Below are positions 15,305 to 55,800 of a stretch of DNA of 64,000 nucleotides, one piece after another. Position 1 is the first letter of the stretch. Each line of letters begins with the position of its first letter. Origin of the DNA: Naegleria gruberi (lineage: Eukaryota); NCBI GenBank assembly GCA_000004985.1, contig GG738864.1; one strand, 5' to 3'. The position numbers and the translations under genes are program-made. Below the pieces are notes generated by a model. It saw only the letters and a list, made by a program, of their open reading frames with translations. It was not told the origin of the DNA and ran no database searches.

Positions 15305-15375
15305 GCGTCGATGGTTTAGTGGTAGAATACGGCGTTGCCATCGCCGTGACCCGGGTTCAATTCCCGGTCGACGCA
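15305..15375 (+). tRNA. tRNA-Gly (anticodon GCC), 71 nt, no encoded CCA
   Basis: Acceptor stem GCGTCGA/TCGACGC. D-arm GTTT-AGTGGTA-GAAT, which carries the A-box. Anticodon stem CGGCG/CGCCG with loop TTGCCAT (anticodon GCC). T-arm CCGGG-TTCAATT-CCCGG, which carries the B-box (GGTTCAATTCC). Discriminator A. Confidence 0.9.
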
Positions 15376-28090: not shown

Positions 28091-31000
28091 ATGACTTCAC
28101 GAGTGTATCCTCAAACACAAAACACAACAAGAGCTGCTACAGGAAGTGTAGTGCTTAACGACGCTGAAAGTTCCTCTCAATTTGGTGCAGGAACTTCTGC
28201 CACTTCAAGCACATATGCTTCTTCATTGGGTGGGAAAAGTGTTGTAAACAATGCTGGAATAAGTATATTCTCATTGATAACAACTCTCAGACCTAAAGAT
28301 ACACTAGTTGGTAACGAGAATACTTACATGTTGCTTGGAATGGTATTCTATCACATTTACTTGATATACAACTCTGTAATACTCTCATCAATTTCAACAC
28401 CAATGATTAGAGATGGCGATTCTACATTGTGGGGAGTTATACCTGGTTGGATATGGAGAGCTTTGTATTTTCCAATTAATTTGGCATCTGAATTCTATCC
28501 ATACTTTTTAATTATTGCACTATCAATACTATTTGTAGTTATACAAGTATGTACTTGTTTTGGAATTTATTATTGCAAGTGGGCTGCAAGAAAGGGAGGA
28601 AAATTGTTTGAAAAGATCAAGACATTTCTATTGAATTCTTTGATATTCCAAAGAACTTTCACTTTATTCATCTTGTCCATTCATGCAATTTTGTTATCTC
28701 CAAACACCAAGAATGGTACTTTATATTACTTTCCAAGTCAATCTTTCAGCTCAGTGATACAAATAGTTTGTGCAGTAATAGGATGTGTTGGAATATTGTT
28801 GAATATAGGTTTGACGGCCATTGCAACACTATTAACTGGCGAAACAAGCCCTCAGTTGGGTCGAAGAATTTGGTTTTCATTGTACTCTATTTCACCATTT
28901 ATGTTCTTTGATTTTGTTAATCAACTAAGTTTAATTTCAACTATTATTTGTGCAGAACCCTATACTTATATTGCTTCTATTATGAAAGTTGTAATGAATT
29001 TATTACTACTAGTAGTAACCGTGAAATCCTTGCCATTCTTTAGAAAATGGGAGAATTGCTTCTATTTAGCATTGATTAGTTTGAAAGTTTTTACTCCAAT
29101 ACCACCATTAATTTTGCCATTTCTTTCTTCTAATCAATTAAATCAACAAGAGATTGGTGGTATCGTGACAGGTGTTACTTTTGCAACTGCTGTCATTTCT
29201 TTTGTATCTGGATTCATTATTTCTTACATTTGGTTAGCATTTAAAATGAAATCAATCAGAAACATACTATCCAATAAGGAAGACAGCTCAGCAACATTGC
29301 TTCTTCTTGAGAAATCAAAAAAGAAACAAGAGAACCTTTCACTATTCATAAGATTTGCAAACAATAGTTCTCCAGCAATGAAATCGAGGGAAGGAAGTGA
29401 TTTTGACTTGGCCAAACATGCTGTCAACACACTTGTCAAACCAATTGAAAATGTTGAACTATTAATTATCAGTTCCTTATTTGTTTCTTTTGGTGGAATT
29501 CTAGATTATGATTATTCCCAATCATTTAGTATTGGATTGGCTCTATTACAAAAAGCTCAACGAATTTCACCTTCGCTATCTCAGATGTTCAATATCATGT
29601 TAAGAAATGAAGAAGTTGAGTTTCATGCCTTTCATGGAAATAATCTTGAAGTTTTGAGAAAACTTGTAATGGTTGAAAAGAAAGTGAAATCATTGTCTAG
29701 ATGTCACAAGTCATTCTTTAAAGAATTATTGAATGACAAACCATCTATTGGTAAATTAGAACATATTAATAGTACCATTTGTTCGATTTATAATGAATGT
29801 GATACAATTTATGATAATTTACTAGTTTCTAATAGATCCAACAAGACACTACTCAGATCATATGCCTCCTATTTGGAAAAATACAAGTGGGAAATCAATT
29901 TAGCAAAACAATTATTTGAAGAAGCCCAAGACAATGATGAAGATAAGAATAAGCAACAGTTTAAGGCACCAGAATCTTCGTTCCATAAAGGAAACACATC
30001 TAGATTTAGTATAGATTCACAAAGAGCTAATATGGATGGTTGGGATTCTGTCAGTGTTGCTGGTGCAGACGAAAACGATGAAGATAGAAAAGATCATGTT
30101 TTGAGAATGGCAATCAACTCTCCCATGTCAACTGTTGCTTATTCCACATTATTTTTCCTTTTCTGTACCCTCTCTGTACTAACTATTTGTATCGTAGCAC
30201 CAGTTTCACTTGTATTTACTCAGAGTATCAATGAGAGAATGACAATGCAAGAGCAGGTTTGCTTAATGACCTCAGTTCCATACAAATTATTAACTCAGGT
30301 TCTAGCGCTTCAAGCAGAATATAGTTTGAGAGGAAATAATACTGAGAAATTACTTAATTCTACCATTGATTATACCAATAACTTGTTGGATACTGTAAAA
30401 ACAGTAGTAACAGCAGGAGACAATAACATGTTAATGCCAGAAGTTGCAAGAGAATATTTGAAAAATCAATATGAACTTAAACTTCCAATTACTAATGATT
30501 CATTAATTGGAAATGAAATACCAGGATATACAATCACTAATACCTCTATTCAATTCTACTTATCTTCCGTGTACACCCATGGAAAGACCTTGCTACAAGA
30601 ATTTAATGATATGGACCAACTGGTTTCGAATACCGATGAGAATTATGCTTTGTTATTTATATTCTACAATAGAATTCCAATGACTCAAGCTTTCAATAGT
30701 TTGTGTTCTAAATTTGTAGAAGAAAGTGTAGCTTCAATTGAAACGAATTTCGAACAATTGTGGATAGTTACAGTTTCTGTTCTTGTTACTTATTTGAGTA
30801 TTTCACTAATTTTCTTTGCAGTAATATTCACACACTCTAGAAGACTTGTTGTTGAGCTTAAAGAAATATTCAGAAGAATAACAAAAGATGAAATAGGAAA
30901 AGTTTATCACAGTTTTGAAAAGAAAATAGACGATTCTATTAGCTCTTCAAATAACCTTTTGAAAATGAGCAATATCCTAATGTTTGGAAGTTTCCTCTTT

Positions 31001-33089: not shown

Positions 33090-34076
33090 TTAATGTTGCT
33101 TTTTGAAACAACCTTGACAATGTTCACAGTGGCATCTACAGTAACATATTTGTTCTGGCAATTTGAAAGAGCTTGGTGTCTCTTCATGAAGTTTCAATGG
33201 TTCTTCACATATCAACCTCATCAAGTCAAAATTTCGTTGTTGTCTTGTCAAAGTCTCTTCAATGAATGTTTGGAGGTGTGCAATCTTTCCATTCAATTCA
33301 GCAATCTGTTGTTGATGAAGCATTTCAGATAAAAGATGACTGTCTTTCAAGAAATTCATATCAATACTATGCTTCTCAATAGCTTCCATCTTTGCTTCCA
33401 ATTGTGAACACCTTTGTGCTGTATCAGCATCTTGCATTAGTGGAGAATGGGAATCACCAGTTTCTTGATACACCTTTTCTTCTGCCTTCTCTTCTTCAAT
33501 CGATACAATCAAAAGCTTCTTTTCAACTTCGGAACAGTACTCTACTTTATCTTGATCATTCATAATTACTCCATGAGCAGAAACAACATTCGAAAGTTGT
33601 TCTTGTTGATTTGAAGAATTCATCACATCTCTCAATTTCAGCAAGTCGCCACAATCTTGTTCCTTCTTCTTAGCATTGGTTATTGGTTTTATGAGAGCAA
33701 AGAGATCTTTCAACAACTTCTTCCAACTCTTTCCTTGCTTGGCAATTAAACACTCTCCAAAGATTGGCTTCTTTTCAAAATAACAATCAAAGGCAATTCT
33801 CATCTCTTCATCAGTAACTTGATCATTTGTAATTTCCTTCTTGAACTTCTTCCAGAAATGAAGGATAATCCTAAAAGCAACCAATTTGTTACTATTCAAA
33901 ATCTGATGGACAGAGTGCAATATTGTCTTTTCATTCTGCAAGTCAAAATCATTCAATTCCTTCGAGATGAATAACATGTGATGCACAATTTGGAACAATA
34001 GCAATCCAGAGTCCTTATTATATTTGGATTGGATTGTATTTTTCAATAGGATAACATTAGACGTTGTAGGGTTCAT
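33090..34076 (-). CDS. Hypothetical coiled-coil protein with a Cys/His-rich C-terminus (328 aa)
   Basis: True ATG at 34076. The C-terminus is CYCRCHCEHCQGCFKK. No family assigned. It sits head-to-head (about 180 bp) with the next gene. Confidence 0.45.
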   Translation of the reverse strand: MNPTTSNVILLKNTIQSKYNKDSGLLLFQIVHHMLFISKELNDFDLQNEKTILHSVHQILNSNKLVAFRIILHFWKKFKKEITNDQVTDEEMRIAFDCYFEKKPIFGECLIAKQGKSWKKLLKDLFALIKPITNAKKKEQDCGDLLKLRDVMNSSNQQEQLSNVVSAHGVIMNDQDKVEYCSEVEKKLLIVSIEEEKAEEKVYQETGDSHSPLMQDADTAQRCSQLEAKMEAIEKHSIDMNFLKDSHLLSEMLHQQQIAELNGKIAHLQTFIEETLTRQQRNFDLMRLICEEPLKLHEETPSSFKLPEQICYCRCHCEHCQGCFKKQH

Positions 34077-34256
34077 CCTCTTATTCTAATCCGTTTGGTT
34101 CGATCGAGAGAGAGAGAGGTAAGGCTTTTTTTTAAGGTTTTTTTCAAAGAGGAGGGAAAGTGTTCAATATTGAACCTCTCTGAGTGTGGTGATGATCACC
34201 TCCAGTTCAATAAATATGGAGCAGGCAAATTGTTCCTATATGGTAATACTGGTCCA

Positions 34257-35939
34257 ATGGAAGAATGGCTTTCTAATTTGAAAGAGTTAAACTTGAATTC
34301 TGATCAAATTTTGGCACTCGTAATGGAAAAGATTAGAGAGAAAACAAAGCTTGTTGAAGAGATGCAAAACGAAACTCTAAAGAGAACCAAGGAAATTGAA
34401 TGGTTGCACTCTGAGTTGGTAACACAAGACAAGAAGAGAAAGGCTGAAACAGCTCTTAAGAAAGAGCCAGTTGAATCTAAAAAGGTAAAGAAGGAAGCTC
34501 CAAGAGTGAAGGAAATTGCATGTGATGATATGACTACAAGGATTCTTGGATTTCTACCAGGCTTACAAGGTTTTAAGCTATTGTTGGTTTCAAAGCAATT
34601 CTTAAGGGCTGTTGAACAATTGAAATCCTACTATTATTGCGATGGAGATGATGTTACTTCATTTTCCGAATCAATATTCTTCAAACACTTAAATATTGTT
34701 GATATTGTGCCAGAAGGGATGCTAAACTTTGGAGAGATGCTAACAAAAGTAGACGAAATCAAAGAATTAAGATGCAAACCAAAGGGCAAATTTTATGCTT
34801 CTCTGTTTTCAAAAAAGTCAAGAATAGAGAAAATTGTAATTGAGGAGTCTTGTCATAGTGTTGAGCTAGATTCTTTCAATCTCTATAATCTACAAGAACT
34901 TAGTGTTCATTTCCTTGATGTAATCAGTAATATTTCAAAGTTTGTTAATAACACAACTCATTCTTTGAGAGTATTGAAAATTGACGCTGATGAGGGTATT
35001 GGTGGTAGTTTGTCTCCTATTGCTTCATTACCAGAATTAGAAGAACTATGTCTTACAAACATTGAAATTCTTCCCGAAACCAAATTATTTGATATTTTCA
35101 AATGTAAAACATTGAGAAAGTGCCAAATAAGTACCTGTTCTGGCACTGACATGGTTGAAATACCTATGATTAACCTTGAATGTCCAAACTTGGTGTCACT
35201 TAATTTAATATCAAAGTTAATGTTTTGTGATATTGTTTGTAACTTCAAAATGCCAAAGCTTGCAACTCTTAAATTATCAGGGGTTACCAGAAGAGGAGCT
35301 GTTTATCTTTCTAGTAATGAAAGTCTTACAAATCTCTGCAATGTTGAATTTTCTAATCCTAAAGACGAAACCTACCAACTAATGTTCCAGAATCAGAACT
35401 TGATCAGTCTAAAACAGCTCATTCTAAGAGCTCAGCAAGATACTGAAACACTTTCAGGCCTATTATTCCATCTCTCAAAACAAGAATCTCCATTTTCGCT
35501 TGAAAAATTGGTCATTGAGAAAAGAAAACCTTCTCTTGATGGTTTCGATGTATTTTGCTCCTCTGCCAAATTTACAAATCTCACCGAGCTTGTTATTTCT
35601 TTACCTAGCTTCATAAAGCAACTGATGCTCTTGGCTGAATGCAAACACTTTTCAAATTTGAGAAAACTCTATATTGGGAATCATATGGATGTTGGACTAG
35701 AAACTAATGAAATTGAAGAGGTTAAACGTATGGAATTCATTTCTCAATTAAGCAAAAATGAAACCTTCAAAAATCTCAAAAATCTCAAGTACTACATCTC
35801 TGATAACGACATTGTAATTTTAAAGAATTCTTCTGTCATTTCATTAAATGAACTCTGTATTGGTAGAAAAGATTTGCTAACATCATACGGATATAGACAT
35901 CTTTGTGAGTGGGGAATTTCATGGAAAATTTGTCAATAG
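34257..35939 (+). CDS. F-box-like / leucine-rich-repeat protein
   Basis: The track start at 34095 is TTG. The first in-frame ATG is at 34257 (MEEWLSNLKELNLNSDQ...). There is an F-box-like segment (MTTRILGFLPGLQGFKLLLVSKQFLRAVEQL) followed by LRR-like repeats (LRVLKIDADEG... LPELEELCLTNIEILPET...). Confidence 0.5.
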   Translation: MEEWLSNLKELNLNSDQILALVMEKIREKTKLVEEMQNETLKRTKEIEWLHSELVTQDKKRKAETALKKEPVESKKVKKEAPRVKEIACDDMTTRILGFLPGLQGFKLLLVSKQFLRAVEQLKSYYYCDGDDVTSFSESIFFKHLNIVDIVPEGMLNFGEMLTKVDEIKELRCKPKGKFYASLFSKKSRIEKIVIEESCHSVELDSFNLYNLQELSVHFLDVISNISKFVNNTTHSLRVLKIDADEGIGGSLSPIASLPELEELCLTNIEILPETKLFDIFKCKTLRKCQISTCSGTDMVEIPMINLECPNLVSLNLISKLMFCDIVCNFKMPKLATLKLSGVTRRGAVYLSSNESLTNLCNVEFSNPKDETYQLMFQNQNLISLKQLILRAQQDTETLSGLLFHLSKQESPFSLEKLVIEKRKPSLDGFDVFCSSAKFTNLTELVISLPSFIKQLMLLAECKHFSNLRKLYIGNHMDVGLETNEIEEVKRMEFISQLSKNETFKNLKNLKYYISDNDIVILKNSSVISLNELCIGRKDLLTSYGYRHLCEWGISWKICQ

Positions 35940-35981
35940 AAATTATCTAGTCCTTCTCTTTATCATGATCTGCATCAAAAA

Positions 35982-38111
35982 TCATTCATCCTCAATTATT
36001 TCCAAATAAACATTATCTTGAATTTCTTCCTCCTCAAAAATAAATATCAAATCTGTGAGTGATGCATTTCGTTGATATGACAATACTAAACTGGATTGTT
36101 TTTCCAATACACTCTCTTCAATAGCAAACACCTTAAATGTTTGGCTCTTGGTGTCAAAATAAAAACTATCCAAAAAAGAAAATCGACATGCAAATCCGTT
36201 AGCCTTCTCCCTGTATAGATTAGACCCGTCAACATAAAACTTGGTCAAATCGTCATTATATTTTGGTTGGATTTTCAAAAATATAAAAGCAGAAAAACGA
36301 ACAAGAGTCATTAAACACCTATTCATACCATGATCTCTTTTCCTTTTCAAAAAACTATTCGTTGAAAAGAATACATTATGAAAATGTCCAACAATCTCTA
36401 TTAGCGAAGATTTGTTGTAAGTATGATCCCCAGAATTACTCAATCTGCACAACATGGAGGATAAACATTTCCTTAAAAGATAAGGATACATTGAAGACAT
36501 GGATTGGCTGAAGAGCAAATCAAAGAAACGATCTGCCCACTCTTTCAAATGTTCCAGCTCTGTATCTAGAGATGTGACTCCTCTTTGAATTAATTCCTCT
36601 GCTATGGCAATCATCTTCTCAGCAGTTGGATCAAATTTAACTTCTCCATCACTTGAACTGATTAAATAGAGTAAATCTCGAAGAAGTGAATAGGCATACG
36701 TAGACTTGAAACTATTCTTTTTTTCTACAAGGTATTCCAATACTATTTCAAATATGGTCTCTATCAGGTCAAACTTTTGAGCAAGAAAATAAAATGGATT
36801 TGAAAATCGATTTCTCCTTCTCAGAAGGAAAAATCGCAGCAGTAAACAGCTCATGAAAACCATTTCTTCTGAGCATGTTTTCCTCAATTTTTCTTCATAT
36901 TTTGACTTTCCCTGAACAATTTCATCCATAAATTTCAACAAGTCGTTGGCCACTTCAAAATTCTGTATATGGTAGGATAGTAATTGGCTATTATCTTTTG
37001 GAAGAGTATGCAGTGCTCTTAGTTCTTTCAAAAGGAATCTTGTGGTTATATATTTACAATTTGAATCATCTCCATAAAGAGAATCCGGGTCCAATAAATA
37101 ATTGGTGATTTCCTTTGGAAGGTACTTTGAATCATGACAACTCAATGCAGCTGAAACAGTTACCCATTTGTAAATATCCACCACTTGATCAGTATTATGA
37201 GAAACATTCAATTGAATAAAATAAAAACTCTTTAGCAATCGCTCTCTTCCTGGCAGAGAGTTTCCCATCACCTGCAGAGCCATCTGTACACTCTCCATAA
37301 ACTCATTCCACAACAAGTGATGAGGACCAACATTCTTATTAATTAATGTACATAAAAATACTCCGCCCAAGCTCGAAATATCCTCATTCACTGAACTAGT
37401 ATTCCAATATCGTTGTTGTAATTTCATTTCCATATTTTGTGAAACATGCTCAATGAGAAGCAACTCTTTCGAATCCAAACATCCAATGCTCAATGAAAAG
37501 ACAAACAATTCCAATAAAATTCCATTCGCATCTTGCTCCAGTTTCTTATAGATTTGTGCCTTCTTTCCAATATCTGTCTTGCCAGACTTTCTCTCCCTCC
37601 GAGAGAGGAATTGTCTCAATACATGACTCATTATTGCATCCAAATCTTCCACAATTAATATCAAATATCGGGGATCCTTGTTTTCATCAACCTGCAAAGC
37701 CTGTTCAATTAATTCAATTCTAATTTTTTTCCTATTCTTTATACAGGTAAATAGAGAAATACAAATTTCACAAAGTTGCTGAATACATTTACTCTTTTTC
37801 AATGCAGAATTATTATAGGATGAATATGTTGATGTTTTGCTCTTGTTATTTTCATCAGAGTTGGAATTTGAATTTTTCAAAGCCTTCTTTTCAATGATCA
37901 GACGAATATTTTCCAAATGTTGGGAGATTTCCTTATAAAGTGATGATGACAATGATGATTGGTCATGTTGAGTGTTATTGTTGTTATTATTATTTACAAT
38001 ATGATGATCATTGTGATCTTTTAATATTCCGATAAGAGAGGAATTTAAAATTTCCAATTTTTTGAGTGATTGTTTTATGGAAAAATGTTGTTGCTGAGTA
38101 TTGTTCAACAT
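35982..38111 (-). CDS. Hypothetical protein (709 aa) with a poly-Asn tract
   Basis: The track start at 38144 is TTG. The first ATG is at 38111 (MLNNTQQQHF...). Mostly helical, no recognisable domain. Its stop codon is 42 bp from the stop of the convergent F-box/LRR gene. Confidence 0.5.
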   Translation of the reverse strand: MLNNTQQQHFSIKQSLKKLEILNSSLIGILKDHNDHHIVNNNNNNNTQHDQSSLSSSLYKEISQHLENIRLIIEKKALKNSNSNSDENNKSKTSTYSSYNNSALKKSKCIQQLCEICISLFTCIKNRKKIRIELIEQALQVDENKDPRYLILIVEDLDAIMSHVLRQFLSRRERKSGKTDIGKKAQIYKKLEQDANGILLELFVFSLSIGCLDSKELLLIEHVSQNMEMKLQQRYWNTSSVNEDISSLGGVFLCTLINKNVGPHHLLWNEFMESVQMALQVMGNSLPGRERLLKSFYFIQLNVSHNTDQVVDIYKWVTVSAALSCHDSKYLPKEITNYLLDPDSLYGDDSNCKYITTRFLLKELRALHTLPKDNSQLLSYHIQNFEVANDLLKFMDEIVQGKSKYEEKLRKTCSEEMVFMSCLLLRFFLLRRRNRFSNPFYFLAQKFDLIETIFEIVLEYLVEKKNSFKSTYAYSLLRDLLYLISSSDGEVKFDPTAEKMIAIAEELIQRGVTSLDTELEHLKEWADRFFDLLFSQSMSSMYPYLLRKCLSSMLCRLSNSGDHTYNKSSLIEIVGHFHNVFFSTNSFLKRKRDHGMNRCLMTLVRFSAFIFLKIQPKYNDDLTKFYVDGSNLYREKANGFACRFSFLDSFYFDTKSQTFKVFAIEESVLEKQSSLVLSYQRNASLTDLIFIFEEEEIQDNVYLEIIEDE

Positions 38112-38441
38112 TTTTTTTAAATGTTTAATAAAATCAAATATCAACTACTGTCTAATAATATTTAATATTCAATATTTAATCTAATAATAAATTAAATATT
38201 ATTAAAAAAAATTACAAAACACATTATTGAGGCAAACTGTCCATCACCATGAAATCTCTTGGCCATTTAAGCACCGTCCAAGAACCCTTAGGTTCACATT
38301 TTCAAGACCCATCTTCCTTCTTTCTCATTTCCAAACTTTACGCATAACGACAATTAATTATTAAATTGGCTCGGATCAGTCACGTAATGACCCATCCATG
38401 CATAATCTAGAAACAAGAAAAAACAAGTCCAGCACATCATT

Positions 38442-40697: not shown

Positions 40698-41864
40698 TTA
40701 CTTTTCTATTTTTTGGAAAGAAATCAAATCCATCAAGTCATCTTTGTAAACGCTTTTGAGAGAGTCAAAGTTTTTCAAATTACCAAATAAAGAGTTTGGT
40801 AAATCGTCGTTGAAAAACATTTCCAGTGAAGAAGTAATGAAGAGTTTCAAACTAGAATTTGATAAGTGGATATTGGCAATGGCAATACATTTGAATTTTT
40901 CCGCTTGATCACTATTTGGAGTGTACTCTCTGTAAATGCATGTATTTTTGAGCTTTTTCAAAGATTGAATAATAAATCCCTGAATGCAACTCTTTTCGTA
41001 AAGTTCCATCTCTTTTGATGATGAAACAGAGAGTGATAAATTCTGAATATTTTCTAATGAAATATCGAGAGAGGTACTTGTTGTTTCCTTATTGGAATTT
41101 TCAAACATGCTAACACATTGATGAATTTGTTCCAATAATTTGGAAGAATTTGGAAAGAGAATGGTGTTGGTTTCTATTGTTGTTGTACTTGTACTAGTAG
41201 TTGCAGTCGTGTTGTTACCACCACTAGTTGTAGTAGTTCCACTAGATTCATTCTCAGTTTTAACAGTATACTTTACGAATTTTCTCCTCCTTTCATAAAT
41301 ATGATCTGATTCACTTTTCCAAATAATTTCAGAAAAATCCAAATCAACAATGGCTCTAAACATTGTTGGATCAATTTCCTCATTCATTGAATTACTATTA
41401 AAAAAGTCCAAGAACCACGTCTTTTCCAACAAGTACTTTAATCTAAAAAGTTTAACATCCAAACTATTAGAAACCAATGCCTCATCCAAACCTTCAAGTT
41501 CATGCAAGCCTCTCTTGCTCAGCAAGGATTTTTCATAGACTTGTTCCGACATTAACTTGATAAAGGCAGCCAACTCAGTCTCATTTAAAATCCTCACAGC
41601 ACTCTCTGAAATAATTATCTGATGAGAATGCATTGGAGGACATCTCTTGTTCAAACAAATGGCAATTAAATCCCGATGAACAAAATATTCCTCTCCTAAT
41701 TTAATAATAATTAATTGATTAAAAAGACAATCCTCCAACTTGTATGAATTTTTGTGTGATGGAGCAGAAGGAGGTAGAATTGAATTGATTGACGCTTCTT
41801 CTTGTTCTTCTGTTTCGCAGCTTTCATCTTGAATAATTTTTCGCTTGAATCGATTTGGCGGCAT
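40698..41864 (-). CDS. Hypothetical protein (388 aa) with a Thr/Ser-rich tract
   Basis: True ATG at 41864. No confident domain. A weak BTB-like N-terminal segment is possible. Confidence 0.4.
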   Translation of the reverse strand: MPPNRFKRKIIQDESCETEEQEEASINSILPPSAPSHKNSYKLEDCLFNQLIIIKLGEEYFVHRDLIAICLNKRCPPMHSHQIIISESAVRILNETELAAFIKLMSEQVYEKSLLSKRGLHELEGLDEALVSNSLDVKLFRLKYLLEKTWFLDFFNSNSMNEEIDPTMFRAIVDLDFSEIIWKSESDHIYERRRKFVKYTVKTENESSGTTTTSGGNNTTATTSTSTTTIETNTILFPNSSKLLEQIHQCVSMFENSNKETTSTSLDISLENIQNLSLSVSSSKEMELYEKSCIQGFIIQSLKKLKNTCIYREYTPNSDQAEKFKCIAIANIHLSNSSLKLFITSSLEMFFNDDLPNSLFGNLKNFDSLKSVYKDDLMDLISFQKIEK

Positions 41865-42345: not shown

Positions 42346-44247
42346 ATGATGAAGCAAATTAGTGGTAAATCACTGATTGCGCTCCTTCTTGTTTTCATCC
42401 TCACGATGGTAGCTACTACCGCCGTGGTTGAAACAAGGGAACAATCAATCGAGTCAGAGGTGGCTCGTCTTGTCCAATTGAAGGCTAAACTTCGTGAAAA
42501 GTGGAATCCTAATGCCTATTTATCTGAACGTATTTTAAAGATTGCTAAAAAGTTTTCAATTTCAATTCCACGTCGTTGTAAGAGAAGAATTTCTGAGGAA
42601 ACTATTGAAATTATTAGAAGATTGGCTGAATGTCCAAAGAATACTAAACCTTCTGAACCAACTAAACCAACCAAACCAACTGAGCCAAGTAAACCAACTG
42701 AACCATCAAAGCCAACTGAGCCAACTACTCCAACTGAACCAACTAAACCTGGTAAGGAATGTCCAGCTTTGAAGTGTAAGAGAGTTTGTGGAACTCGTGG
42801 ATATAAGAAAAATTCAAGAGGATGTGATACTTGTAAGTGTAACAAGAAGCCAACTAAACCAACCAAGCCAGGAAAGGGTTGTCCACACGTTTCTTGTCCA
42901 AAATCATGTCAATCTGGATCTAGTATTGGTATTGATCAAAAGACTGGATGTTTGGCTTGTACTTGTAAACCAACCAAGCCAACTGAGCCAACCACTCCAA
43001 GTGAACCAACTAAACCAACTACTCCAACTCAACCTGAAACACCAACTACTCCAACTGAGCCAACTCAACCTGAAAAGCCTACTGTTCCAGTAACTCCAAC
43101 TGAACCAACTCAACCTACTGAACCAAGTAAGCCAACTGAGCCAACCACTCCAACTACTCCAACTGAGCCAACTCAACCAACTACTCCAACTGTTCCAACC
43201 AAGCCAACTAGACCAACCAGACCAACCAGACCAAGAAGACCAACTAGACCTAGAAGACCAACTAGACCAAGAAGACCAACTAGACCAACCAAGCCAACAA
43301 GACCTGGTCGTCCAACTAGACCTTCTCGTCCAAGCAGACCATCTAGACCAAGCCGTCCAAGTAGACCATCTAGACCTTCCAGACCAAGCAGACCAACTCG
43401 TCCATCTAGACCTTCTAGACCTTCTAGACCAAGTAGACCATCTAGACCATCCACACCAAGTCGTCCATCTAGACCAAGCAGACCATCCAGACCTAGTCCA
43501 TCAAGACCAGGTAGATCTTCACCAGGTAGAGGTGGTGGTGGTGGAAGAGGAGGTAGAGGTAGAGGAGATCCTCATTTCACTACAATTGTTGGACATCAAG
43601 ATGTATTATTCAACGGAATTGGTGACTTTATTCTTGCTGAGACAGTTGACAAGGAATTCGTTGCCCACGTTCGTATTGCCAAATGGAATGGTGACAAGGG
43701 AGATGCTACTGTCAACGTTGCTGCTGCTGTTAAGGCCGGTTCTGATACTATTGAATTCGATAGCAAGTCAAAGAAGTTTTATTTGAATAAGAAGCGTGCC
43801 ATTTTCGCCATTGGTAGAAAGTATGAATTGGATGGTGGTTACTTGTTGAGAAAGACTGAAAAGTCATTCATTGTCAAGTCTAACGATGGAGCTGAATTCT
43901 TCGGTGAATACTTTGTTTTGCACGATGGTAGAAGTTATATGGATGTTTCAGTTGATGCTCCAAAGGATGTTGAATTCGAAAGAGGATTAATTGTTAACGG
44001 AAAGGACTCTGGTGTTGCTGAAGGATTATTCAGAAACCACAAGCAAAGAAAGGTCTTGCCAAAGGCCAAGCTCAATATTCCAAAATGGGCTTTGGATGCT
44101 TGTGCCAAGAAGGGTGTCACTGGAAGACGTTTGAAGGACTGTGCCTATGACATTACTGTCACTGGTAAGGAATTCGCCAAGGAAATTGCCAAGGATGAAG
44201 CCAAGTTCAATAAGAGAGCCGATAAGGTTGTCAAAAAGAACAAATAA
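42346..44247 (+). CDS. Secreted Pro/Thr-repeat protein with two 6-Cys modules, a basic P-[ST]-R-P repeat tract and a C-terminal GDPH (VWD-like) domain (633 aa)
   Basis: Signal peptide, then an amphipathic helix. PTKPTEPSKPTEP-type linker repeats. Cys modules CPALKCKRVCGTRGYKKNSRGCDTCKC and CPHVSCPKSCQSGSSIGIDQKTGCLACTC. A (PTRPRR)n / (PSRPSR)n tract and a Gly/Arg run. The C-terminal domain begins RGDPHFTTIVGHQDVLFNGIGDFIL..., which resembles the start of von Willebrand D / RGM-type domains that carry an acid-labile Asp-Pro bond. Confidence 0.7.
   Translation: MMKQISGKSLIALLLVFILTMVATTAVVETREQSIESEVARLVQLKAKLREKWNPNAYLSERILKIAKKFSISIPRRCKRRISEETIEIIRRLAECPKNTKPSEPTKPTKPTEPSKPTEPSKPTEPTTPTEPTKPGKECPALKCKRVCGTRGYKKNSRGCDTCKCNKKPTKPTKPGKGCPHVSCPKSCQSGSSIGIDQKTGCLACTCKPTKPTEPTTPSEPTKPTTPTQPETPTTPTEPTQPEKPTVPVTPTEPTQPTEPSKPTEPTTPTTPTEPTQPTTPTVPTKPTRPTRPTRPRRPTRPRRPTRPRRPTRPTKPTRPGRPTRPSRPSRPSRPSRPSRPSRPSRPSRPTRPSRPSRPSRPSRPSRPSTPSRPSRPSRPSRPSPSRPGRSSPGRGGGGGRGGRGRGDPHFTTIVGHQDVLFNGIGDFILAETVDKEFVAHVRIAKWNGDKGDATVNVAAAVKAGSDTIEFDSKSKKFYLNKKRAIFAIGRKYELDGGYLLRKTEKSFIVKSNDGAEFFGEYFVLHDGRSYMDVSVDAPKDVEFERGLIVNGKDSGVAEGLFRNHKQRKVLPKAKLNIPKWALDACAKKGVTGRRLKDCAYDITVTGKEFAKEIAKDEAKFNKRADKVVKKNK
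42640..43500 (+). repeat. Imperfect tandem repeats of 9 and 18 bp encoding PT(K/E)P and P(S/T)RP units within the CDS
   Basis: Runs of ccaactaaacca / ccaactgagcca units, then agaccaactagaccaagaaga and agaccatctagaccaagc units. The matching repetitive ORFs on other frames and strands in the track (42516-43454) are artefacts of this repeat. Confidence 0.8.
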
Positions 44248-46326: not shown

Positions 46327-46779
46327 GAGTCTACCAAGTAATTGAAATTAGAGAATGATCGCAATACTGTTCAACTGAAACATTTAACATTAAATAAACT
46401 GTTTTTCAGAGGTGCCAGTTGTAACTTAGACGTTTTTTCTTTTGGATCAATTGTAAACTTGTTGTGGGGTTTAACATTTTGCAATCATGTTTTAAAACAT
46501 CCAAGCAAAAAAGACTACAGCACCACAGGTTCCCAAGTTGTCTCCAACCTCAGTACTGATGTGGCTCGACGATGCTTAACTTCTCAAATCGGACGGGATG
46601 AGGTGCATTCATCGTGATATGGCCGTAGCCATTCATTATCTTTAAATCTGAAACAAAAAGTACAATCAGCCCAACTTTCACATTATAATTCCAAAATATA
46701 ACAACAAAATACTGTAGTAAACAAACACTGAGTGAATATCAATATCATCATCAAAATAAAATACAAATATTTACAAATT

Positions 46780-49835: not shown

Positions 49836-52800
49836 ATGCTCTCCGATCAAGATTATCAGAAACATAAGAGGAGGAAGGAAGAAGAGGAAAAGAAGAGAAA
49901 GGAAAGAGAGGATGAATCTTCTTTGCCTTCATCATCATCTAATTCCACTCCTCAACAATATGAACATCAAACTCTGAATAATAATATTGTGATAATAGAT
50001 GGTGATGACACTGATAGTAATGATGCTGTTATTATCACCTCTCCAACAATTCAAGAACAACAAACAGCTAAATTTGGTTTTCTAGTCAATAGTCAAGAAG
50101 ACAACAATAATTCATCATCATCACCACATGTTACAGGTAGTAGCAATAAGAAACGAAAGACTACCAGTCACTCTCCTTTAACAACAAATATTTCTCCTAT
50201 TAAACAAGAAGAAGACATGTCTTCTACTGTTCCACCCAATCAACAAGAACAAACAGCCAACAATAACATGGTGATGATGGATAACAACAATAGCAATGAA
50301 AAGCCTTCTACACCCAAACAAGGCACAACAACAACAAATTCCGATGAAGATGATGTTATAATGATTGAGAGTAATGAAGCAACACTTTCACCTTCCTTGT
50401 TACACAAGATGCAAGGTTCTCTAAAGATTGAAGAATCACAACAACAGGAACAAACTAACACTAGTGCAAGTACTACTACCATTCCATCATCATCGGAATT
50501 ATCAGATAATAATGATACATCATCAAAACCTTCGGAAGAGAATGATCAACAACAACAACAAGAAGGCACCAACAATAATAATACGGTTCTTCTCAATTCT
50601 GTCAAGACAATAACTGAAAACACTGGTGTGAGAATAGTGGTGCATGCCTTCATTCCTCCACAGTACACTGATGATCTACAACCAGCCTTGAGGTACAGTT
50701 ATAAGGAAATTACAGGTTCGGGGAAAAACAAGAAGGAAGAAGTTAAAAAGGTAGACATTCCACTGGGTCACACTCCTGTTGAGGGTCTGGATATTTGGTT
50801 TTGTGTTGTGAAATTGCCACTTCAAGTTGATTTCGTGAGCTTTAAGATTATTGTTAGAGATGAGAGTAAGGCAATTCATACTGATAAAGAGGTTAGATCG
50901 ATAACACTTCCAAAATATACCACTCCAGCTGTTCATCACATCTATATTAACTTTAATCCAAAATCAGAAAAGAGACAGGGAATTTTGGACATGTTCAAAA
51001 CCAAACTTTCAATGACTGAAACCTTTTTAACAGAGTTATTTACTCCTTCCAAGATTGATACTGGTGATTTATTGCCATCTGATACTGAGAATAATGTTTT
51101 TGAGAATTTAATTAGAATTAACAGAAAACGAATTCAAATATTTCATTCAAGATTGGATGGGTTTATGCAAAGTATGGCTCATCTCAGTGATTTGAATTTT
51201 TACACTAAAATACACATCAAACAAAATTATACCAGCACCAACAGACACAATTTAAAGTCACCATATGTGTATGAGGATACCAAAAAGTTTCTCCTTTCTT
51301 TACCAGAAAAGATCATTCAGGATAAGACTGATTTCGAATTGAAATTGATAATGACCCTTGTATTCTTTGAAAAGATTTATTCCATCTCTGGTCACAATGA
51401 TAAGAAGAACTTTGATGAAATGATTGATCTTTTGAAAGAATTGGATGTGTATACACTCAATACTATATTTCATCACATTTTGAAAAAGGAAGCAGAAAAA
51501 TCTACACCAATCAACTTGATTAGAGATTCATTCAGAAATTCCATTCAAGCTCTGATAAATGTCTTTTCGGCCACCACAAATGACAAGAGAAAGTTTAGCT
51601 ATTGGATTATGGCTGCTCCATTCATTAGTCTTGAATTGAAGTTTCACGGTAGCACCAGTCCACTGGATATGCTGATAATGCAATCTGATAAGAAGAGGTT
51701 CGATACAGAATTTGCCACCTTGACTTCAATAGTTGAAGAGAAAAGAGCACTCATTTCGAATAGATCTCATGTCGTGTCTGGTACAGATATTGGTATTATA
51801 TTCTCAACAATTTTTAAAATGGCCTCCTCTCTTAATGATATCAATTGTATTCTAACATTAACATCAGATATGCAATCGAATGAAGGAAGGTTCAGATCTT
51901 TCACCACTCAACTATGTGAATTCATTTCTAATATGGATTCTTGGGAAGATAGTGATTTTGATTCCTTTACATATTTATTGGAAAATCATTCATACGTTCT
52001 TTCTAGCACATCTATGTTGGCAAGTTATTTCAAGAATAAGGCTCTCAGTGAAGTTAGCCACTACCACTCTGAGAATATTTTGAAGCATTTACTCATGTTC
52101 CTTGAAAATGAAGAATTCGTTGCTAATAACAAAGAAAAGGATCTCATTTCCCTGTCAAAACTCATAGCCAACTTCTTTTCTACATTGTTTGGAAAGAAAA
52201 AGTCAAGTTACAACCTCTTTAAAAAGAGTGTCTATTCAATGAAAGATATAGTTGCCTTTTATTCTAAACTTGCAGAATCCTTATCAAAAACTTGTATGAA
52301 TGACTATCAACTTATTATCATTGAATCCATTTCCAATAACTCTTCCTTCACTTCCAGCGGTTCAGACCCGTATTCAAGGATTACATCTCTTATAGAAATT
52401 TGTGAAGAGTTTGAATTGGATGAAAGGGCAACACTTGGTAATATTCTTGCTCAATTGACTTTGGATACAGTCAAATCATTGGGAGTTAGCAACAAGGTAA
52501 TCAACAAACTCTTGGATACTGTCTCAAGGTTCTATGCAGACAGTATTGATATTACAATTGATGTTGTTTCCAAGAAAGTTTTAATGTACATAATAGAAAC
52601 ATTGAGTGAGGGATCATCAATGACCATCGAGATATTGTTCAAACATCACTTGTTGTGGAGTCGTTTATTTCAACTCAATGATATTTTCACAGACAAGAAA
52701 TTGATTGAAGGAGTACAGCTAGTGGACAAATTCTCCCAACAAATCAATAACCATACCATCGCCCTAAATGATCTGAGAATTATTTTAAGAGATGACAATC

Positions 52801-55800
52801 AAGATAGGTTCGTATCACTGGCAACATATTCCGGTGTCAGTGTTATTTCCAAGAATACTCTGATAGATATTGACTTTCAGGTTCAATACTTTGAAACACT
52901 ACTGAAACAGTGTCACGACTTTTGCAACCATTACTGTCAACATGATAATGTAAATAATGAATTCAGGTTGCTATTGGAAAAGATTGAAGCTGAAATCCAA
53001 AATAATGCCGTATTTAGTAGTATCAATTCAAGCTTCAATAATTTTGCCTTCCTTAAAGAGCTTCCAACCCTTCAACATTTATGTAAATCCGAGCTCTTTT
53101 TACAATTCTGGAACGAAACCATAGATCAAATGGTTGAAAGTCTGGTTACTGAAACTGAATCCACCTCAAAGATAATATTCACAATTAATGATTTGAAATC
53201 CCGAGTCTATCCACAAGTAGTTCAAAAATGGCTCCAGTTGTACAATAATCTGAACATGAAAACTATTTCATTTTTAGAACTTCAAACATTATTCAGTGAT
53301 AATACTGAGGAGGAGACGTTCCAAGATATGCTCTTCCTCAAAAGAACTTGTCAATCAACTGATAACATGCTTGATGGAGATGCCACTCAATTCCACCTTA
53401 TCAATGAAAACAATCAAAGTTATATTCAATGGTCAAGAGAACACGCCCAACTCATCTCGAGTTTTTTAACTATAGTCAAACAAAAAGAGTACATACCAAT
53501 GATAGTTTCTATTTTGAGCAAGTTTAACAGTAATTTTTCAACTTCTGTTTTCACAGATTCGTACTATGTTAAGATTGAAAAAATTCACAAGTACATTCTT
53601 GAGAAATGGGAATCTGGAAACCTCTTTGATATTGTTGACATGGTCAATGAAGCCAAATCGGCATTGCAACATTTGGGAAAGAACGAATTACTATTGATTG
53701 AATTTTTGAATGAATCTGATGATTTATTGAATTGGTTATGGCAACACAATGATTCCAGTCAATTCAATGAATTGATCAGAGTTTGCAGAGAAGTTACTGA
53801 TGATGCTATCATATTGCAGTCATTTGCTTCTCTTACAAGTGCCAGAGAATATTTGTACGAGTTGGTTTATCCATCAAGAAAGTTTACCAGTTGTGAATCC
53901 TTTTTGAGGGCAATCAACACAGCCAACTTGAACAAGGATGATACAGAAATTCAAAGGAGATTGACAGACTGTAAAGTTATTAGATCAAACTTGGAGAATG
54001 TCAAACAAGTATTTAAAGAAAAGACGAGAAGCCCCTCTGTGACTGCTGTTTTAAAGCTTTTAGAAATTATAAGTGGTGCGACCATATCTGTAACAACAAT
54101 TAATTCTATCTCAGAGGATAATTATATTATATGTAATGTAAAAGGCAAGATCACACACTTGAGTGATTTGATTGATATTAGAACAACAGTGTTAAATACC
54201 ACCATTCCAAACGAACTGAAGGAGAAACATATTAACTTGGATGCTGCTATCGATACATTCTGTAAATTAGTTAACATTCTCTCATCAATGAAGAGAACTT
54301 TAATAGAATTAGGCATCAATGGTAGTATGATAGTTGATAATTACGAGTTTACCATCACTCTGAATGTTGATAATTTAGAATATTTATTATTCCAATTTAT
54401 GGAGGAAGAAAAGAGACTGTCAGAAATGAATTCCAACTGGAAGTTAACGATCAAGAATATTAGATTGGAATATAATTTACTGAATTACTTCAATATGCGA
54501 GAGTTGAGAAAACTCATAAAATGGCTCGATATGATAAAGGAAGGAAATTCTATAGTTGGAGAAAGAGTATATTCCATGCTCAAGATTATTGATAATAATC
54601 TCACTCTTCAACAGTACAAATCATTTGAGAAGGAATGGATCGATTACGATATTATGGTGGATGATGATATTCAATTGATATCACTTGGTTCATGTCTGAA
54701 TTCACATTTCAATCTGATTGAGGATAGTCACGAACAAATCGATTTCCTGCCAAGTTCCGATTTGGGCATGTCTACAATGAATGTAGAGAAAAATAACAGC
54801 AAGCAAAACCTTATCGTCATTGCATGCCAAAATGATCAAGAGGTTGAATCTATTGTTTATTCTTTGTATGCTGTTAAATCCATTCTACCACAAGTTGAAG
54901 AAGTACTCATGTGCAGACCAAATACAGACTTTGAAGATATTGAATTGGTTGTAAGAAGATGGTCAAAATCGGAACACAAAAAGCAAATATTTACATTGGC
55001 TAACATTCAACATTTGGACTATACTTTACAATGTAAAGTAGTGGACATGCTTAAAAATTATTTACAAACAAGTACAACATTAGCAACCTTAGCTATTGTT
55101 TCAAGTACTCAACAACAGAGAATTATCAATGCCTTCTCTAACTTTAGATTTGATGGGTCTCCACTTTCTTCTGAGGACTTGAAAGACTCTCTTCTTCAAA
55201 TTGCCAAACCTGGAAAGTTTTCTTCAGGTGTTAATGTTTACACTAGCCCTATGGCAGGTTGTGGTAAAAGTCACACAATATTTGAACGTTCTCACATTGA
55301 GAAAAAGAAGCTAGTCTACATTTCTCTAAGAGAGTCAGTTAACATTACAGAATTAATTAATCAATTGAATGAGAAAACTAGGAATAGCCAACCTGTAACT
55401 TTGCACTTTAACATTGCTCCAAATGTGGATACCATTGTTAATTCAATACTTTTCGAATTGATTGTAATAGGTTCACTCAGAGATCACCAATGCAACGTTT
55501 ACCACAGAAGGCCAATAGATTCTATTGCAATAGAAATACCAAACCAAGTTGGAAATAGAACTCTTGTACGTTCTGTTCCATTCTGTAAATATCTACCAAG
55601 AGTAGAATGTATTGTTTCGGCTCATACACTCTCCATCGAAAGGAAATACGAAATTGGTACTAATGGTAGTGTGATGGTCTCAAACAATAGAAAGCTAAAA
55701 TATGTTTGCTCATTATTATTGGCTCATCAAAATGGCGTCTTTGTCAATAATAACGGAACCGATTTCGTTAACTTTACACCTAACATGGACAATATGAACA

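What the first reader, a model, noticed from the sequence alone, without database searches (positions are those of the whole stretch)
42346..44247. Modular secreted protein: PT-linker repeats, two novel 6-Cys knots, an extremely basic (P-S/T-R-P)n tract and a GDPH autoproteolysis-type domain
The protein has a signal peptide followed by PTKPTEP-type spacer repeats. Two similar modules, C-x4-C-x3-C-x11/12-C-x2-C-x-C, sit between them. A 90-residue tract is made almost entirely of PTRPRR/PSRPSR units, giving an extremely high pI. The C-terminal domain opens with RGDPHFTT. Asp-Pro within GDPH is the self-cleaving bond in VWD domains and RGM/hemojuvelin proteins. The combination looks like a cell-surface or matrix adhesion protein. 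At the DNA level the repeats generate spurious ORFs on four other frames.
Basis: partly seen in the sequence, partly recalled or inferred. Interest (0 to 1): 0.6.

Follow-up and report, generated by a model that had tools for sequence, protein, structure and literature searches.

The report
Naegleria secreted antistasin–VWD modular protein
This is a real gene of the amoeba Naegleria gruberi for a secreted, very basic, proline-rich protein that carries leech-type antistasin-like cysteine knots and ends in a mucin-type von Willebrand D domain with its self-cleavage motif; the protein family was described in 2025, so it is a further member and not a new kind of protein.

Summary
The window is Naegleria gruberi NEG-M nuclear DNA.

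- **Cysteine modules.** The two "novel 6-Cys knots" are antistasin-like domains (PF02822). Module 1 scores above Pfam's threshold. Module 2 is a degenerate copy.
- **Known family.** The layout (signal peptide, 60-aa two-Cys helical module, (S/T)-x-P spacers with or without antistasin knots, a basic Pro/Arg tract, then RGDPH-VWD) matches orthogroup OG0001630 of the Naegleria/Willaertia antistasin-like proteins published in mSphere 2025. This paralogue is missing from that paper's table, and the paper does not mention the VWD domain.
- **New detail.** This subfamily has lost both cysteines that staple strand β1 to the VWD sandwich in its Naegleria paralogues. If D408|P409 self-cleaves, no disulfide would hold the roughly 380-aa cationic stalk to the VWD domain.

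Cleavage and function are inferred, not shown. Verdict: new member of a known kind, of modest interest.

The parts
42346..44247 (+). Complete single-exon ORF of 633 aa including the stop codon. It is a secreted modular protein of Naegleria gruberi.
   Evidence: One search lists the ORF. Neighbouring ORFs are exact matches to N. gruberi XP_002677857, XP_002677859 and XP_002677861. It is collinear with the N. gruberi paralogue XP_002672706.1.
42346..42426 (+). Probable signal peptide, aa 1 to about 27. The cleavage site was not determined.
   Evidence: It is the only Kyte-Doolittle peak in the protein, at residues 5-30. Paralogues with the same N-terminus were scored as having a signal peptide by SignalP 6 in Table S3 of PMC12482156.
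42448..42633 (+). N-terminal helical module of about 60 aa with two Cys (C78, C96), aa about 35-96. It has no Pfam family.
   Evidence: It is 49% identical to XP_002672706.1 (E 2e-20). It is present in P0006 and P0007. It is 39% identical over 61 aa (E 9e-6) to the extreme C-terminus of the Willaertia VWD paralogue P0012. Pfam gives no match.
42634..42756 (+). Spacer 1 of (S/T)-x-P triplets (TKP/TEP/SKP), aa 97-137.
42760..42840 (+). Antistasin-like domain 1, aa 139-165, with spacing C-x4-C-x3-C-x11-C-x2-C-x-C.
   Evidence: Pfam PF02822 scores 26.9 bits (E 6.9e-6; cutoff 21.2) across the full profile 1-26. It scores 23.8 bits in the context of the N-terminal 218 aa.
42880..42966 (+). Degenerate antistasin-like domain 2, aa 179-207, with x13 in the long loop.
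   Evidence: PF02822 scores 13.3 bits, E 0.12, over the full profile but below the cutoff. It aligns collinearly with a bona fide module of XP_002672706.1.
42973..43206 (+). Spacer 2 of neutral or acidic (S/T)-x-P triplets (TEP/TTP/TQP/TKP), aa 210-287.
43207..43530 (+). Basic (T/S/R)-R-P triplet tract with a short Ser/Pro/Gly/Arg tail, aa 288-395.
   Evidence: Residues 311-395 have pI 12.0 and charge +26. The codon-level degeneracy of the units is shown. Equivalent basic Pro-rich tracts occur in all subfamily members.
43531..43563 (+). Gly/Arg linker GGGGGRGGRGR, aa 396-406. It supplies the predicted strand β1 of the VWD domain.
   Evidence: The AF2 model places strand E2-5 (aa 402-405) before GDPH, at pLDDT about 72. 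In VWD domains β1 lies N-terminal to GDPH (PMC10880436).
43564..43575 (+). GDPH motif, aa 407-410. The predicted scissile bond is D408|P409, and R406-G407-D408 forms an RGD.
   Evidence: P and H are at least 90% conserved across 23 family domains. The cleaved FCGBP chains 8qci_B and 8r0t_C start at the aligned Pro.
43549..43998 (+). VWD β-sandwich, aa about 402-551, with no cysteines.
44068..44244 (+). Helical C8-like tail with two invariant Cys (C586, C599), aa about 575-633.
   Evidence: The model has helices H180-188, H194-206 and H208-232. The segment 'LKDCAYDITVTGKE' aligns to the FCGBP C8 start 'LDDCVFDLCVTGGE'. The two Cys are invariant in alignment A2. One family member hits C8-3_MUC4.

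Best explanation
The gene encodes a secreted, soluble, strongly cationic modular protein of Naegleria gruberi. It is a paralogue within the Naegleria/Willaertia 'antistasin-like' orthogroup OG0001630.

Its order of parts is:
1. signal peptide;
2. a lineage-specific two-Cys helical module of about 60 aa;
3. an extended stalk with proline at every third residue, (S/T)-x-P. It is probably a polyproline-II-like and possibly O-glycosylated rod. It carries one good and one degenerate antistasin-like knot, and it changes from neutral or acidic to extremely basic;
4. a Gly/Arg strand;
5. GDPH;
6. a cysteine-free VWD β-sandwich with a reduced C8-like helical tail.

**Most likely mechanism (inferred).** As in every experimentally studied GDPH-bearing VWD domain that I know of, the D408-P409 bond hydrolyses autocatalytically in the secretory pathway. 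This subfamily has lost both cysteines that tie strand β1 to the sandwich in Naegleria paralogues and in FCGBP. No other unpaired Cys is available. After cleavage, the N-terminal fragment of about 380 aa (helical module, antistasin knots and cationic rod, ending in ...RGRGD) would therefore be held to the VWD/C8 fragment only non-covalently, and it could be shed.

**Shown.** The ORF, the domain identities, the predicted fold, the position of the motif, the loss of the Cys pair and the family membership.

**Inferred.** Secretion, cleavage, release, glycosylation and any protease-inhibitor or adhesive role.
For: - **Organism.** Neighbouring ORFs match N. gruberi proteins exactly.
- **VWD by sequence.** The 66%-identical homologue P0001 passes Pfam VWD (28.2 bits against a 22.9 cutoff). 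19 of 23 full-length family domains match VWD and 8 of 23 match RGM_C. The family profile hits FCGBP at 7.9e-34, MUC5AC and MUC5B at 1.4e-9, and RGMb at 6e-4 over the whole profile.
- **GDPH context.** The motif lies between the predicted β1 and β2, as in FCGBP (PMC10880436). Asp and His, which are essential for cleavage in FCGBP D10, are present. An Asn (N423) aligns with the helper Gln of FCGBP (domain 5).
- **Loss of the clamp.** 'C-x3-GDPH' and 'G-x-C' are present in the paralogues but absent from all 4 subfamily members in alignment A2. The truncated subfamily sequences in Table S3 show no Cys just before GDPH.
- **Antistasin.** The N. fowleri relative has 8 modules in the recovered part of its ORF, at E 8e-59.
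- **Architecture.** The N. gruberi paralogue XP_002672706.1 and other family members share the same layout.
Against: - The window's own VWD sequence does not reach any Pfam threshold by itself. The assignment rests on transitive, profile and predicted-structure evidence.
- There is no experimental or proteomic evidence of expression, secretion or cleavage.
- β1 is a Gly/Arg low-complexity strand modelled at only about 72 pLDDT.
- VWD domains with GDPH but without the clamp are already known in animals, and release there is described only as possible 'in principle' (PMC10880436).
- Antistasin module 2 is below threshold. The Naegleria modules have fewer Cys than characterised inhibitors (PMC12482156).
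- The exact 633-aa product is not in the 15-billion-protein collection, so the reference gene model may differ.
- The N. fowleri orthologue locus has a frameshift inside the basic tract. That is either an assembly error or decay.
Confidence: 0.6

Rival explanations
1. The domain composition is as described, but GDPH is not cleaved or cleavage has no functional consequence. The VWD/C8-like domain and the N-terminal two-Cys module would then act simply as binding or oligomerisation ends of a structural extracellular polymer, in a cyst wall, a surface coat or an adhesive matrix. The Pro-rich rod would be a spacer and the cationic tract would bind polyanions.
For: VWD assemblies mediate multimerisation in mucins and VWF (PMC10880436 introduction). 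The N-terminal module and the VWD domain co-occur in either order in the Naegleria/Willaertia paralogues, which suggests a functionally coupled pair of end modules. The antistasin knots are dispensable within the subfamily: P0007 and the N. fowleri orthologue have none. The protein carries a net charge of +71.
Against: GDPH is retained with P and H at least 90% conserved across divergent family members. Conservation of that kind is more than a pure fold requirement would impose. All experimentally examined GDPH motifs in FCGBP are cleaved (title and abstract of PMC8267560).
Confidence: 0.25
2. The protein is primarily a secreted serine-protease inhibitor. The antistasin-like knots would be the active part, and the remainder would be a carrier or anchor. 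It could protect the amoeba from its own or from prey proteases.
For: Module 1 is a significant PF02822 match. Antistasin-family proteins are serine-protease inhibitors in leeches (PMC12482156). 51 of the 59 Naegleria/Willaertia antistasin-like proteins have predicted signal peptides.
Against: There is only one good module here and a degenerate second one. The closest orthologues, P0006 and P0007, have none, so the conserved core of the subfamily is not the knot. The Naegleria modules have 6 Cys against 10 in characterised antistasins. No inhibitory activity has been shown for any protist member.
Confidence: 0.1
3. It is not a real gene. On this view it is a low-complexity repeat ORF, an assembly artefact or a pseudogene.
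For: Repeats give long open frames in three other frames. The exact product is absent from the protein collection. The N. fowleri orthologue locus shows a frameshift in the equivalent tract.
Against: Three non-repetitive modules (N-terminal module, antistasin, VWD/C8) are intact, in frame and 49-69% identical to proteins of other loci and species. The repeat units are degenerate at the DNA level. A high-confidence fold is predicted.
Confidence: 0.03

Closest known systems
Naegleria/Willaertia antistasin-like domain proteins, orthogroup OG0001630 (mSphere 2025, PMC12482156). Examples are N. gruberi XP_002672706.1, N. fowleri XP_044559591.1 and N. lovaniensis XP_044545434.1.
   Same: The order of parts is the same: signal peptide, 'LKxKWNPxxYLxxRIxxIAKxF...C...C' module, Pro-rich spacers, antistasin-like knots, a basic Pro-rich tract, then (G)RGDPH-VWD. 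Against XP_002672706.1 the N-terminal module is 49% identical and the start of the VWD 69% identical. Against XP_044559591.1 (the L001 ORF, P0001) the VWD/C8 domain is 66% identical.
   Different: This paralogue is not among the five N. gruberi entries of the published table. It has only 1 good and 1 degenerate knot, against up to 11. Its stalk is a strict (S/T)-x-P triplet array ending in (S/T)RP units, where the others have PPVRPP-type tracts. The paper does not mention the VWD domain: 'von Willebrand' occurs 0 times in its text.
D assemblies of FCGBP, gel-forming mucins and VWF (VWD-C8-TIL-E)
   Different: There are no TIL or E modules. The C8-like part has 2 Cys and not 8. The sandwich has no disulfides, and the β1 clamp disulfide is lost. 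The organism is a heterolobosean amoeba and not an animal. Sequence identity is only 13-16%.
Repulsive guidance molecules (RGMa, RGMb, RGMc/hemojuvelin)
   Different: There is no RGM_N domain and no GPI-anchor-like hydrophobic C-terminus. There are no inter-fragment disulfides. The window sequence itself does not match RGM_C. The fold is closer to mucin and VWF VWD domains than to RGM.
Leech antistasin and metazoan antistasin-like serine-protease inhibitors (PF02822 / IPR004094)
   Same: The 6-Cys spacing C-x4-C-x3-C-x11-C-x2-C-x-C is shared, and module 1 is a significant Pfam match.
   Different: Characterised antistasins have more cysteines per repeat (PMC12482156). No reactive-site or inhibition data exist for any protist member. 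Here the knots are embedded in a Pro-rich stalk attached to a VWD domain.

Membership tests
VWD domain (Pfam PF00094 / VWFD) | Significant sequence-profile similarity to VWD | tested here: met
   The window sequence alone gives no Pfam hit. However, the 66%-identical P0001 scores 28.2 bits against a 22.9 cutoff. 19 of 23 full-length family domains match VWD. The family profile that includes the window sequence hits FCGBP at 7.9e-34, plus mucins and VWF. The feature is met transitively and by profile.
VWD domain (Pfam PF00094 / VWFD) | VWD β-sandwich fold | tested here: met
VWD domain (Pfam PF00094 / VWFD) | [quoted passage not shown] | tested here: met
   GDPH is at aa 407-410, between the model strands E2-5 and E10-12. 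This matches the topology described in PMC10880436.
VWD domain (Pfam PF00094 / VWFD) | Disulfide tying β1 to the sandwich (Cys before GDPH paired with the 'GLC' Cys) | tested here: not met
   Both Cys are absent here and in the other 3 subfamily members, but present in the Naegleria/Willaertia paralogues. The feature is not universal among VWD domains (PMC10880436 discussion).
VWD domain (Pfam PF00094 / VWFD) | Autocatalytic Asp-Pro cleavage actually occurs | not testable with these tools
   This needs protein chemistry. Only the sequence requirements could be checked: Asp, Pro and His are present, and an Asn sits at the helper-Gln position.
Complete D assembly (VWD-C8-TIL-E) | C8 module with 8 Cys, followed by TIL and E modules | tested here: not met
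   After the sandwich there is only a helical segment of about 60 aa with 2 Cys, and the protein ends at residue 633. No TIL or C8 Pfam hit was found for the window.
RGM family | RGM_N domain together with RGM_C, and a GPI anchor | tested here: not met
   The window gives no RGM_N or RGM_C Pfam hit. The C-terminus is hydrophilic with no second hydrophobic segment. Only the VWD-like part resembles RGM.
Antistasin-like domain (PF02822 / IPR004094) | Profile match above the gathering threshold, with the 6-Cys spacing | tested here: met
   Module 1 scores 26.9 bits (E 6.9e-6) against a 21.2 cutoff over the full profile. Its Cys spacing is confirmed.
Antistasin-like domain (PF02822 / IPR004094) | Second module also a member | tested here: inconclusive
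   Module 2 scores 13.3 bits, E 0.12. It aligns collinearly with a bona fide module of XP_002672706.1.
Antistasin-like domain (PF02822 / IPR004094) | Serine-protease inhibition | not testable with these tools
   No activity data exist for any Naegleria member (PMC12482156).
Naegleria/Willaertia orthogroup OG0001630 (PMC12482156 Table S3) | Collinear architecture and significant similarity in the N-terminal module, the antistasin region and the VWD start | tested here: met
   BLASTP against XP_002672706.1 gives E 2e-20 (N-terminal module), 4e-4 (antistasin pair) and 2e-19 (GDPH/VWD start), all collinear. The C-terminal domain is 66% identical to XP_044559591.1, the L001 ORF. Formal orthogroup assignment with OrthoFinder was not run.

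The most novel reading that the evidence does not exclude
In this heterolobosean subfamily the VWD domain may have become a self-cleaving release device. With the β1 disulfide clamp lost, GDPH autoproteolysis in the secretory pathway would shed a long, cationic, possibly glycosylated polyproline rod that carries antistasin knots and ends in a neo-C-terminal ...RGD. The N-terminal two-Cys module and the VWD domain would act as a coupled docking pair. That would be the first functional GDPH autoprocessing system outside animals. It would also bear on whether the 'animal' VWD and antistasin modules in Naegleria are ancient or were horizontally acquired.
Probability: 0.2. Interest if true: 0.55.

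Novelty: new member of a known kind. Interest (0 to 1): 0.3.

Why it matters
- **Addition to a published inventory.** It adds an overlooked paralogue to the Naegleria antistasin-like proteins described in 2025.
- **A domain the paper did not discuss.** The largest orthogroup of that family is built on a VWD/C8-like domain with an intact GDPH self-cleavage motif. The paper does not discuss this domain. UniProt flags it automatically, but only in related VWD paralogues.
- **Two 'animal' modules in a deep-branching amoeba.** VWD and antistasin modules are both overwhelmingly metazoan. Finding them fused in a free-living relative of the brain-eating N. fowleri is relevant to the origin of extracellular-matrix modules.
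- **A testable case.** The coordinated loss of the β1 clamp cysteines gives a concrete case of what GDPH cleavage does when nothing covalent holds the fragments together.
- **Limits.** No new fold, motif or mechanism is demonstrated here.

Tried and rejected
- **Giant-virus or bacterial origin.** The AT-rich, densely packed ORFs suggested this. It was rejected because neighbouring ORFs match N. gruberi proteins exactly and carry eukaryotic signalling domains.
- **First AF2 run.** A 2-sequence alignment gave a useless model (pLDDT 38). The run on the 23-sequence family alignment succeeded.
- **The search for homologous proteins.** It performed poorly. It returned 1 hit, 2 hits and only PT-rich low-complexity hits. 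It therefore could not show whether the reference annotation contains this gene.
- **Annotation status.** Exact-sequence look-up failed. The look-up of encoding contigs has no record for the N. gruberi neighbour. Accession order, plus a BLAST table in PMC5309974 naming XP_002677860 as NAEGRDRAFT_79489, suggest that an annotated model exists here. I could not retrieve it.
- **Metagenome scan.** A search for close relatives gave only a 21-residue match.
- **afdb50 fold library.** It was unavailable.
- **Collagen- or extensin-like reading of the period-3 tract.** Rejected. The invariant position is Pro with Ser/Thr, there is no Gly-X-Y pattern, and there are no Ser-Pro4 blocks.
- **Membrane or GPI anchoring.** Rejected. 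The only hydrophobic segment is the N-terminal one.
- **RGM membership.** Rejected, as set out in the membership test.
- **Other copies and gene context.** There are no other copies of any module in the window (tblastn). Synteny with the N. fowleri loci is absent, so gene context carries no information.
Full report
**What is there.** The ORF 42346-44247 (+) encodes 633 aa from an ATG start. The window is Naegleria gruberi NEG-M nuclear DNA. Three neighbouring ORFs are exact matches to XP_002677857 (28091-32923), XP_002677859 (38442-40655) and XP_002677861 (45145-46326), all on a 442-kb scaffold. The surrounding genes are typical eukaryotic signalling genes: a PAS-cyclase, an RGS protein, a START protein, an RCC1-like protein and an NHL protein. 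The exact 633-aa product is not in the 15-billion-protein collection. Accession order, together with a BLAST table in PMC5309974, suggests that the reference model at this position is XP_002677860 (NAEGRDRAFT_79489). I could not retrieve that model, so the reference gene structure may differ from the plain ORF.

**Checking the observation.**
- The only hydrophobic segment is residues about 5-30. There is no other transmembrane or GPI-like segment and no N-glycosylation sequon.
- Residues 97-137 and 210-393 are strict period-3 (S/T)-x-P arrays. The second is an unbroken run of about 61 triplets. It changes from TEP/TTP/TQP/TKP to TRP/RRP/SRP at about residue 288.
- In residues 296-393, 95 of 98 residues are R, P, S or T. 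Residues 311-395 have pI 12.0. The whole protein has pI 10.4 and net charge about +71.
- The two Cys modules are at 139-165 (long loop x11) and 179-207 (long loop x13, not x12).
- RGDPHFTT starts at residue 406.
- At the DNA level the repeats are imperfect, at 67-82% matches. The SRP unit is written with at least 10 different 9-mers. This argues for selection on the peptide and against a collapsed perfect repeat.
- Low-complexity ORFs overlap in three other frames at a threshold of 80 aa, not four.

**The Cys modules are antistasin-like, not novel.**
- Module 1 alone scores 26.9 bits (E 6.9e-6) against Pfam Antistasin PF02822, whose cutoff is 21.2, and it covers the full profile. In the full-length protein it falls just below the cutoff at 20 bits.
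- Module 2 scores 13.3 bits (E 0.12). It aligns collinearly with a bona fide module of a paralogue.
- The related N. fowleri ORF recovered on Logan contig L001 has 8 such modules (E 8e-59).
[quoted passage not shown] It lists 59 proteins in 10 orthogroups. Most have signal peptides, and the domain is otherwise almost restricted to animals.
- Orthogroup OG0001630 in that paper's Table S3 includes N. gruberi XP_002672706.1, N. fowleri XP_044559591.1 (the same sequence as the L001 ORF) and N. lovaniensis XP_044545434.1. These have the same architecture as the window protein.
- The window protein is not among the five N. gruberi entries. A plausible reason, which I did not test, is that its best module is sub-threshold in the full-length context or that the reference model differs.
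- BLASTP against XP_002672706.1 is collinear: N-terminal module 49% identity (E 2e-20), antistasin pair (E 4e-4) and GDPH/VWD start 69% identity (E 2e-19).

**The C-terminal domain is VWD plus a reduced C8.**
- The window's own sequence gives no Pfam hit and only weak PDB hits, but those hits fall on the GDPH starts of five FCGBP VWD domains.
- An exhaustive HMMER search found 94 relatives. Those I could name are Naegleria or Willaertia proteins. Several are labelled 'VWFD domain-containing protein' by UniProt. One more distant hit is bacterial, from Herpetosiphon.
- The 66%-identical P0001 passes the Pfam VWD cutoff. 19 of 23 full-length family domains match VWD and 8 of 23 match RGM_C.
- A profile built from those 23 domains, including the window's, hits FCGBP at 7.9e-34. 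It also hits MUC5AC and MUC5B at 1.4e-9, MUC2, VWF, Cypridina luciferase, and RGMb over the whole profile at 6e-4.
- With that alignment AlphaFold2 gives pLDDT 90 and pTM 0.86. The model is a β-sandwich (aa about 402-551) followed by three helices (aa about 580-632).
- The helical tail begins with the 'LKDC.YD..VTG' motif that aligns to the start of the FCGBP C8 modules. It keeps two invariant Cys.
- There are no TIL or E modules, so this is not a full D assembly. There is no RGM_N domain and no GPI signal, so it is not an RGM.

**The GDPH site and the lost clamp.**
- In VWD domains GDPH lies in the turn between β1 and β2, and the Asp-Pro bond hydrolyses autocatalytically. In FCGBP D10 the Asp and the His are essential and a nearby Gln contributes (PMC10880436).
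- Here G407-D408-P409-H410 is intact. It lies between the predicted strands E2-5 and E10-12. N423 aligns with the helper Gln.
- The solved, cleaved FCGBP chains begin exactly at the aligned Pro.
- In the Naegleria/Willaertia paralogues the motif reads C-x3-GDPH, and a 'G-x-C' follows the sandwich. These are the positions of the disulfide that keeps β1 attached after cleavage.
- All four members of the window's subfamily in alignment A2 have lost both cysteines: 'RGRGRGDPH' or 'VARGDPH', and 'RGLIV'. The truncated OG0001630 sequences in Table S3 also show no Cys immediately before GDPH.
- The remaining cysteines are 2 in the N-terminal module, 6+6 in the knots and 2 in the C8-like tail. That is an even number within each module, so no free Cys is expected to bridge the cleavage site. 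This point is an inference.

**Mechanism proposed.** The statements that are shown are the domain identities, the predicted fold, the motif context, the clamp loss and the family membership. The rest is inferred:
1. The protein enters the secretory pathway.
2. The (S/T)-x-P stalk, with Pro at every third residue, adopts an extended polyproline-II-like conformation. Because PPII has three residues per turn, Pro, Ser/Thr and the variable or charged residue would each line one face. The stalk may be O-glycosylated.
3. D408|P409 self-cleaves.
4. The N-terminal fragment of about 380 aa, ending in ...RGRGD, stays attached only through the non-covalent β1 strand and can dissociate.

I put about 0.9 on the domain assignment, about 0.6 on cleavage and about 0.4 on physiological release. 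The biological role is open. It could be a matrix or cyst-wall component, a binder of polyanions or prey, or a protease inhibitor. The closest orthologues (N. fowleri XP_044566670, which is P0006, and metagenomic P0007) lack antistasin knots altogether. The conserved core is therefore the N-terminal module, the Pro-rich/basic rod and the VWD domain. The knots look accessory.

**Additional structural observation.** The N-terminal module of about 60 aa with two Cys has no Pfam family. It recurs at the extreme C-terminus of VWD-first paralogues, with 39% identity over 61 aa and E 9e-6 to Willaertia P0012. It is visible by eye in N. gruberi P0009, although BLASTP there is weak (E 0.47). The two modules therefore co-occur in either order, which suggests a coupled function.

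**Novelty and score.** The protein is a new, previously unlisted member of a published family. Each of its domains belongs to a known kind. The antistasin-VWD fusion, the clamp loss and the N-terminal module are details not discussed in the literature I could search. None of them is a new mechanism, and no function is demonstrated. Interest is 0.3.

Noticed in passing
window 49836-63998 (+), running off the 3' end: A giant open reading frame of at least 4,721 aa. The ORF listing does not show it because it runs off the window, so the region looks ORF-free at first. Pfam finds an RZ-type zinc finger (PF20173, E 3.8e-20, aa 4225-4270) and AAA/AAA_5 ATPase modules (aa about 2190-2655). That is the signature of an RNF213/mysterin-like giant E3 ligase in Naegleria.
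   Followed up: partly
window 46512-46630 (-): A full-length 5S rRNA gene (Rfam RF00001, 105 bits) lies 2.3 kb downstream of the target gene, between protein-coding genes.
   Followed up: no
window 15305-15375 (+): A tRNA-Gly(GCC) gene.
   Followed up: no
window 42448-42633 (+); P0012 aa 396-455; P0009 C-terminus: A lineage-specific helical module of about 60 aa with two Cys ('RLxxLKxKLxxKWNPxxYLxxRIxxIAKxF...C...C') and no Pfam family. It is N-terminal in the antistasin/VWD subfamily and C-terminal in VWD-first paralogues of Willaertia and Naegleria. It therefore travels with VWD in either order.
   Followed up: partly
L003 2899-4580 (N. fowleri VFQX01000012.1, orthologue locus): The N. fowleri orthologue is split over two overlapping frames (2899-3969 and 3696-4580), with the shift inside the basic Pro/Arg tract. 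The NCBI model XP_044566670 bridges the shift with an 'intron'. It starts at an internal Met and so loses the signal peptide, and it contains an odd His/Gln/Glu-rich stretch that is the wrong-frame reading of the tract. Either the assembly has an indel or the gene is decaying.
   Followed up: partly
window 40698-41864 (-) and 33090-38144: Several long ORFs near the target (388 aa on the - strand at 40698-41864, and three ORFs between 33090 and 38144) have no Pfam hit. The protein accession numbers leave room for only one annotated CDS in each interval. The reference annotation here may be incomplete, or the models may differ from the plain ORFs.
   Followed up: no
window 43561-43569 (aa 406-408): R-G-D immediately precedes the predicted scissile bond, so the cleaved N-terminal fragment would end in ...RGD. 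The Arg is kept in the subfamily members I saw (RGRGDPH or ARGDPH) but not in the clamp-bearing paralogues. This may simply reflect the Gly/Arg linker.
   Followed up: no
window 28091-32923 (+): A 1,610-aa protein with TmcB-like TPR, PAS and a class III adenylate/guanylate cyclase domain (XP_002677857). It is one of the many PAS-cyclases of Naegleria.
   Followed up: no
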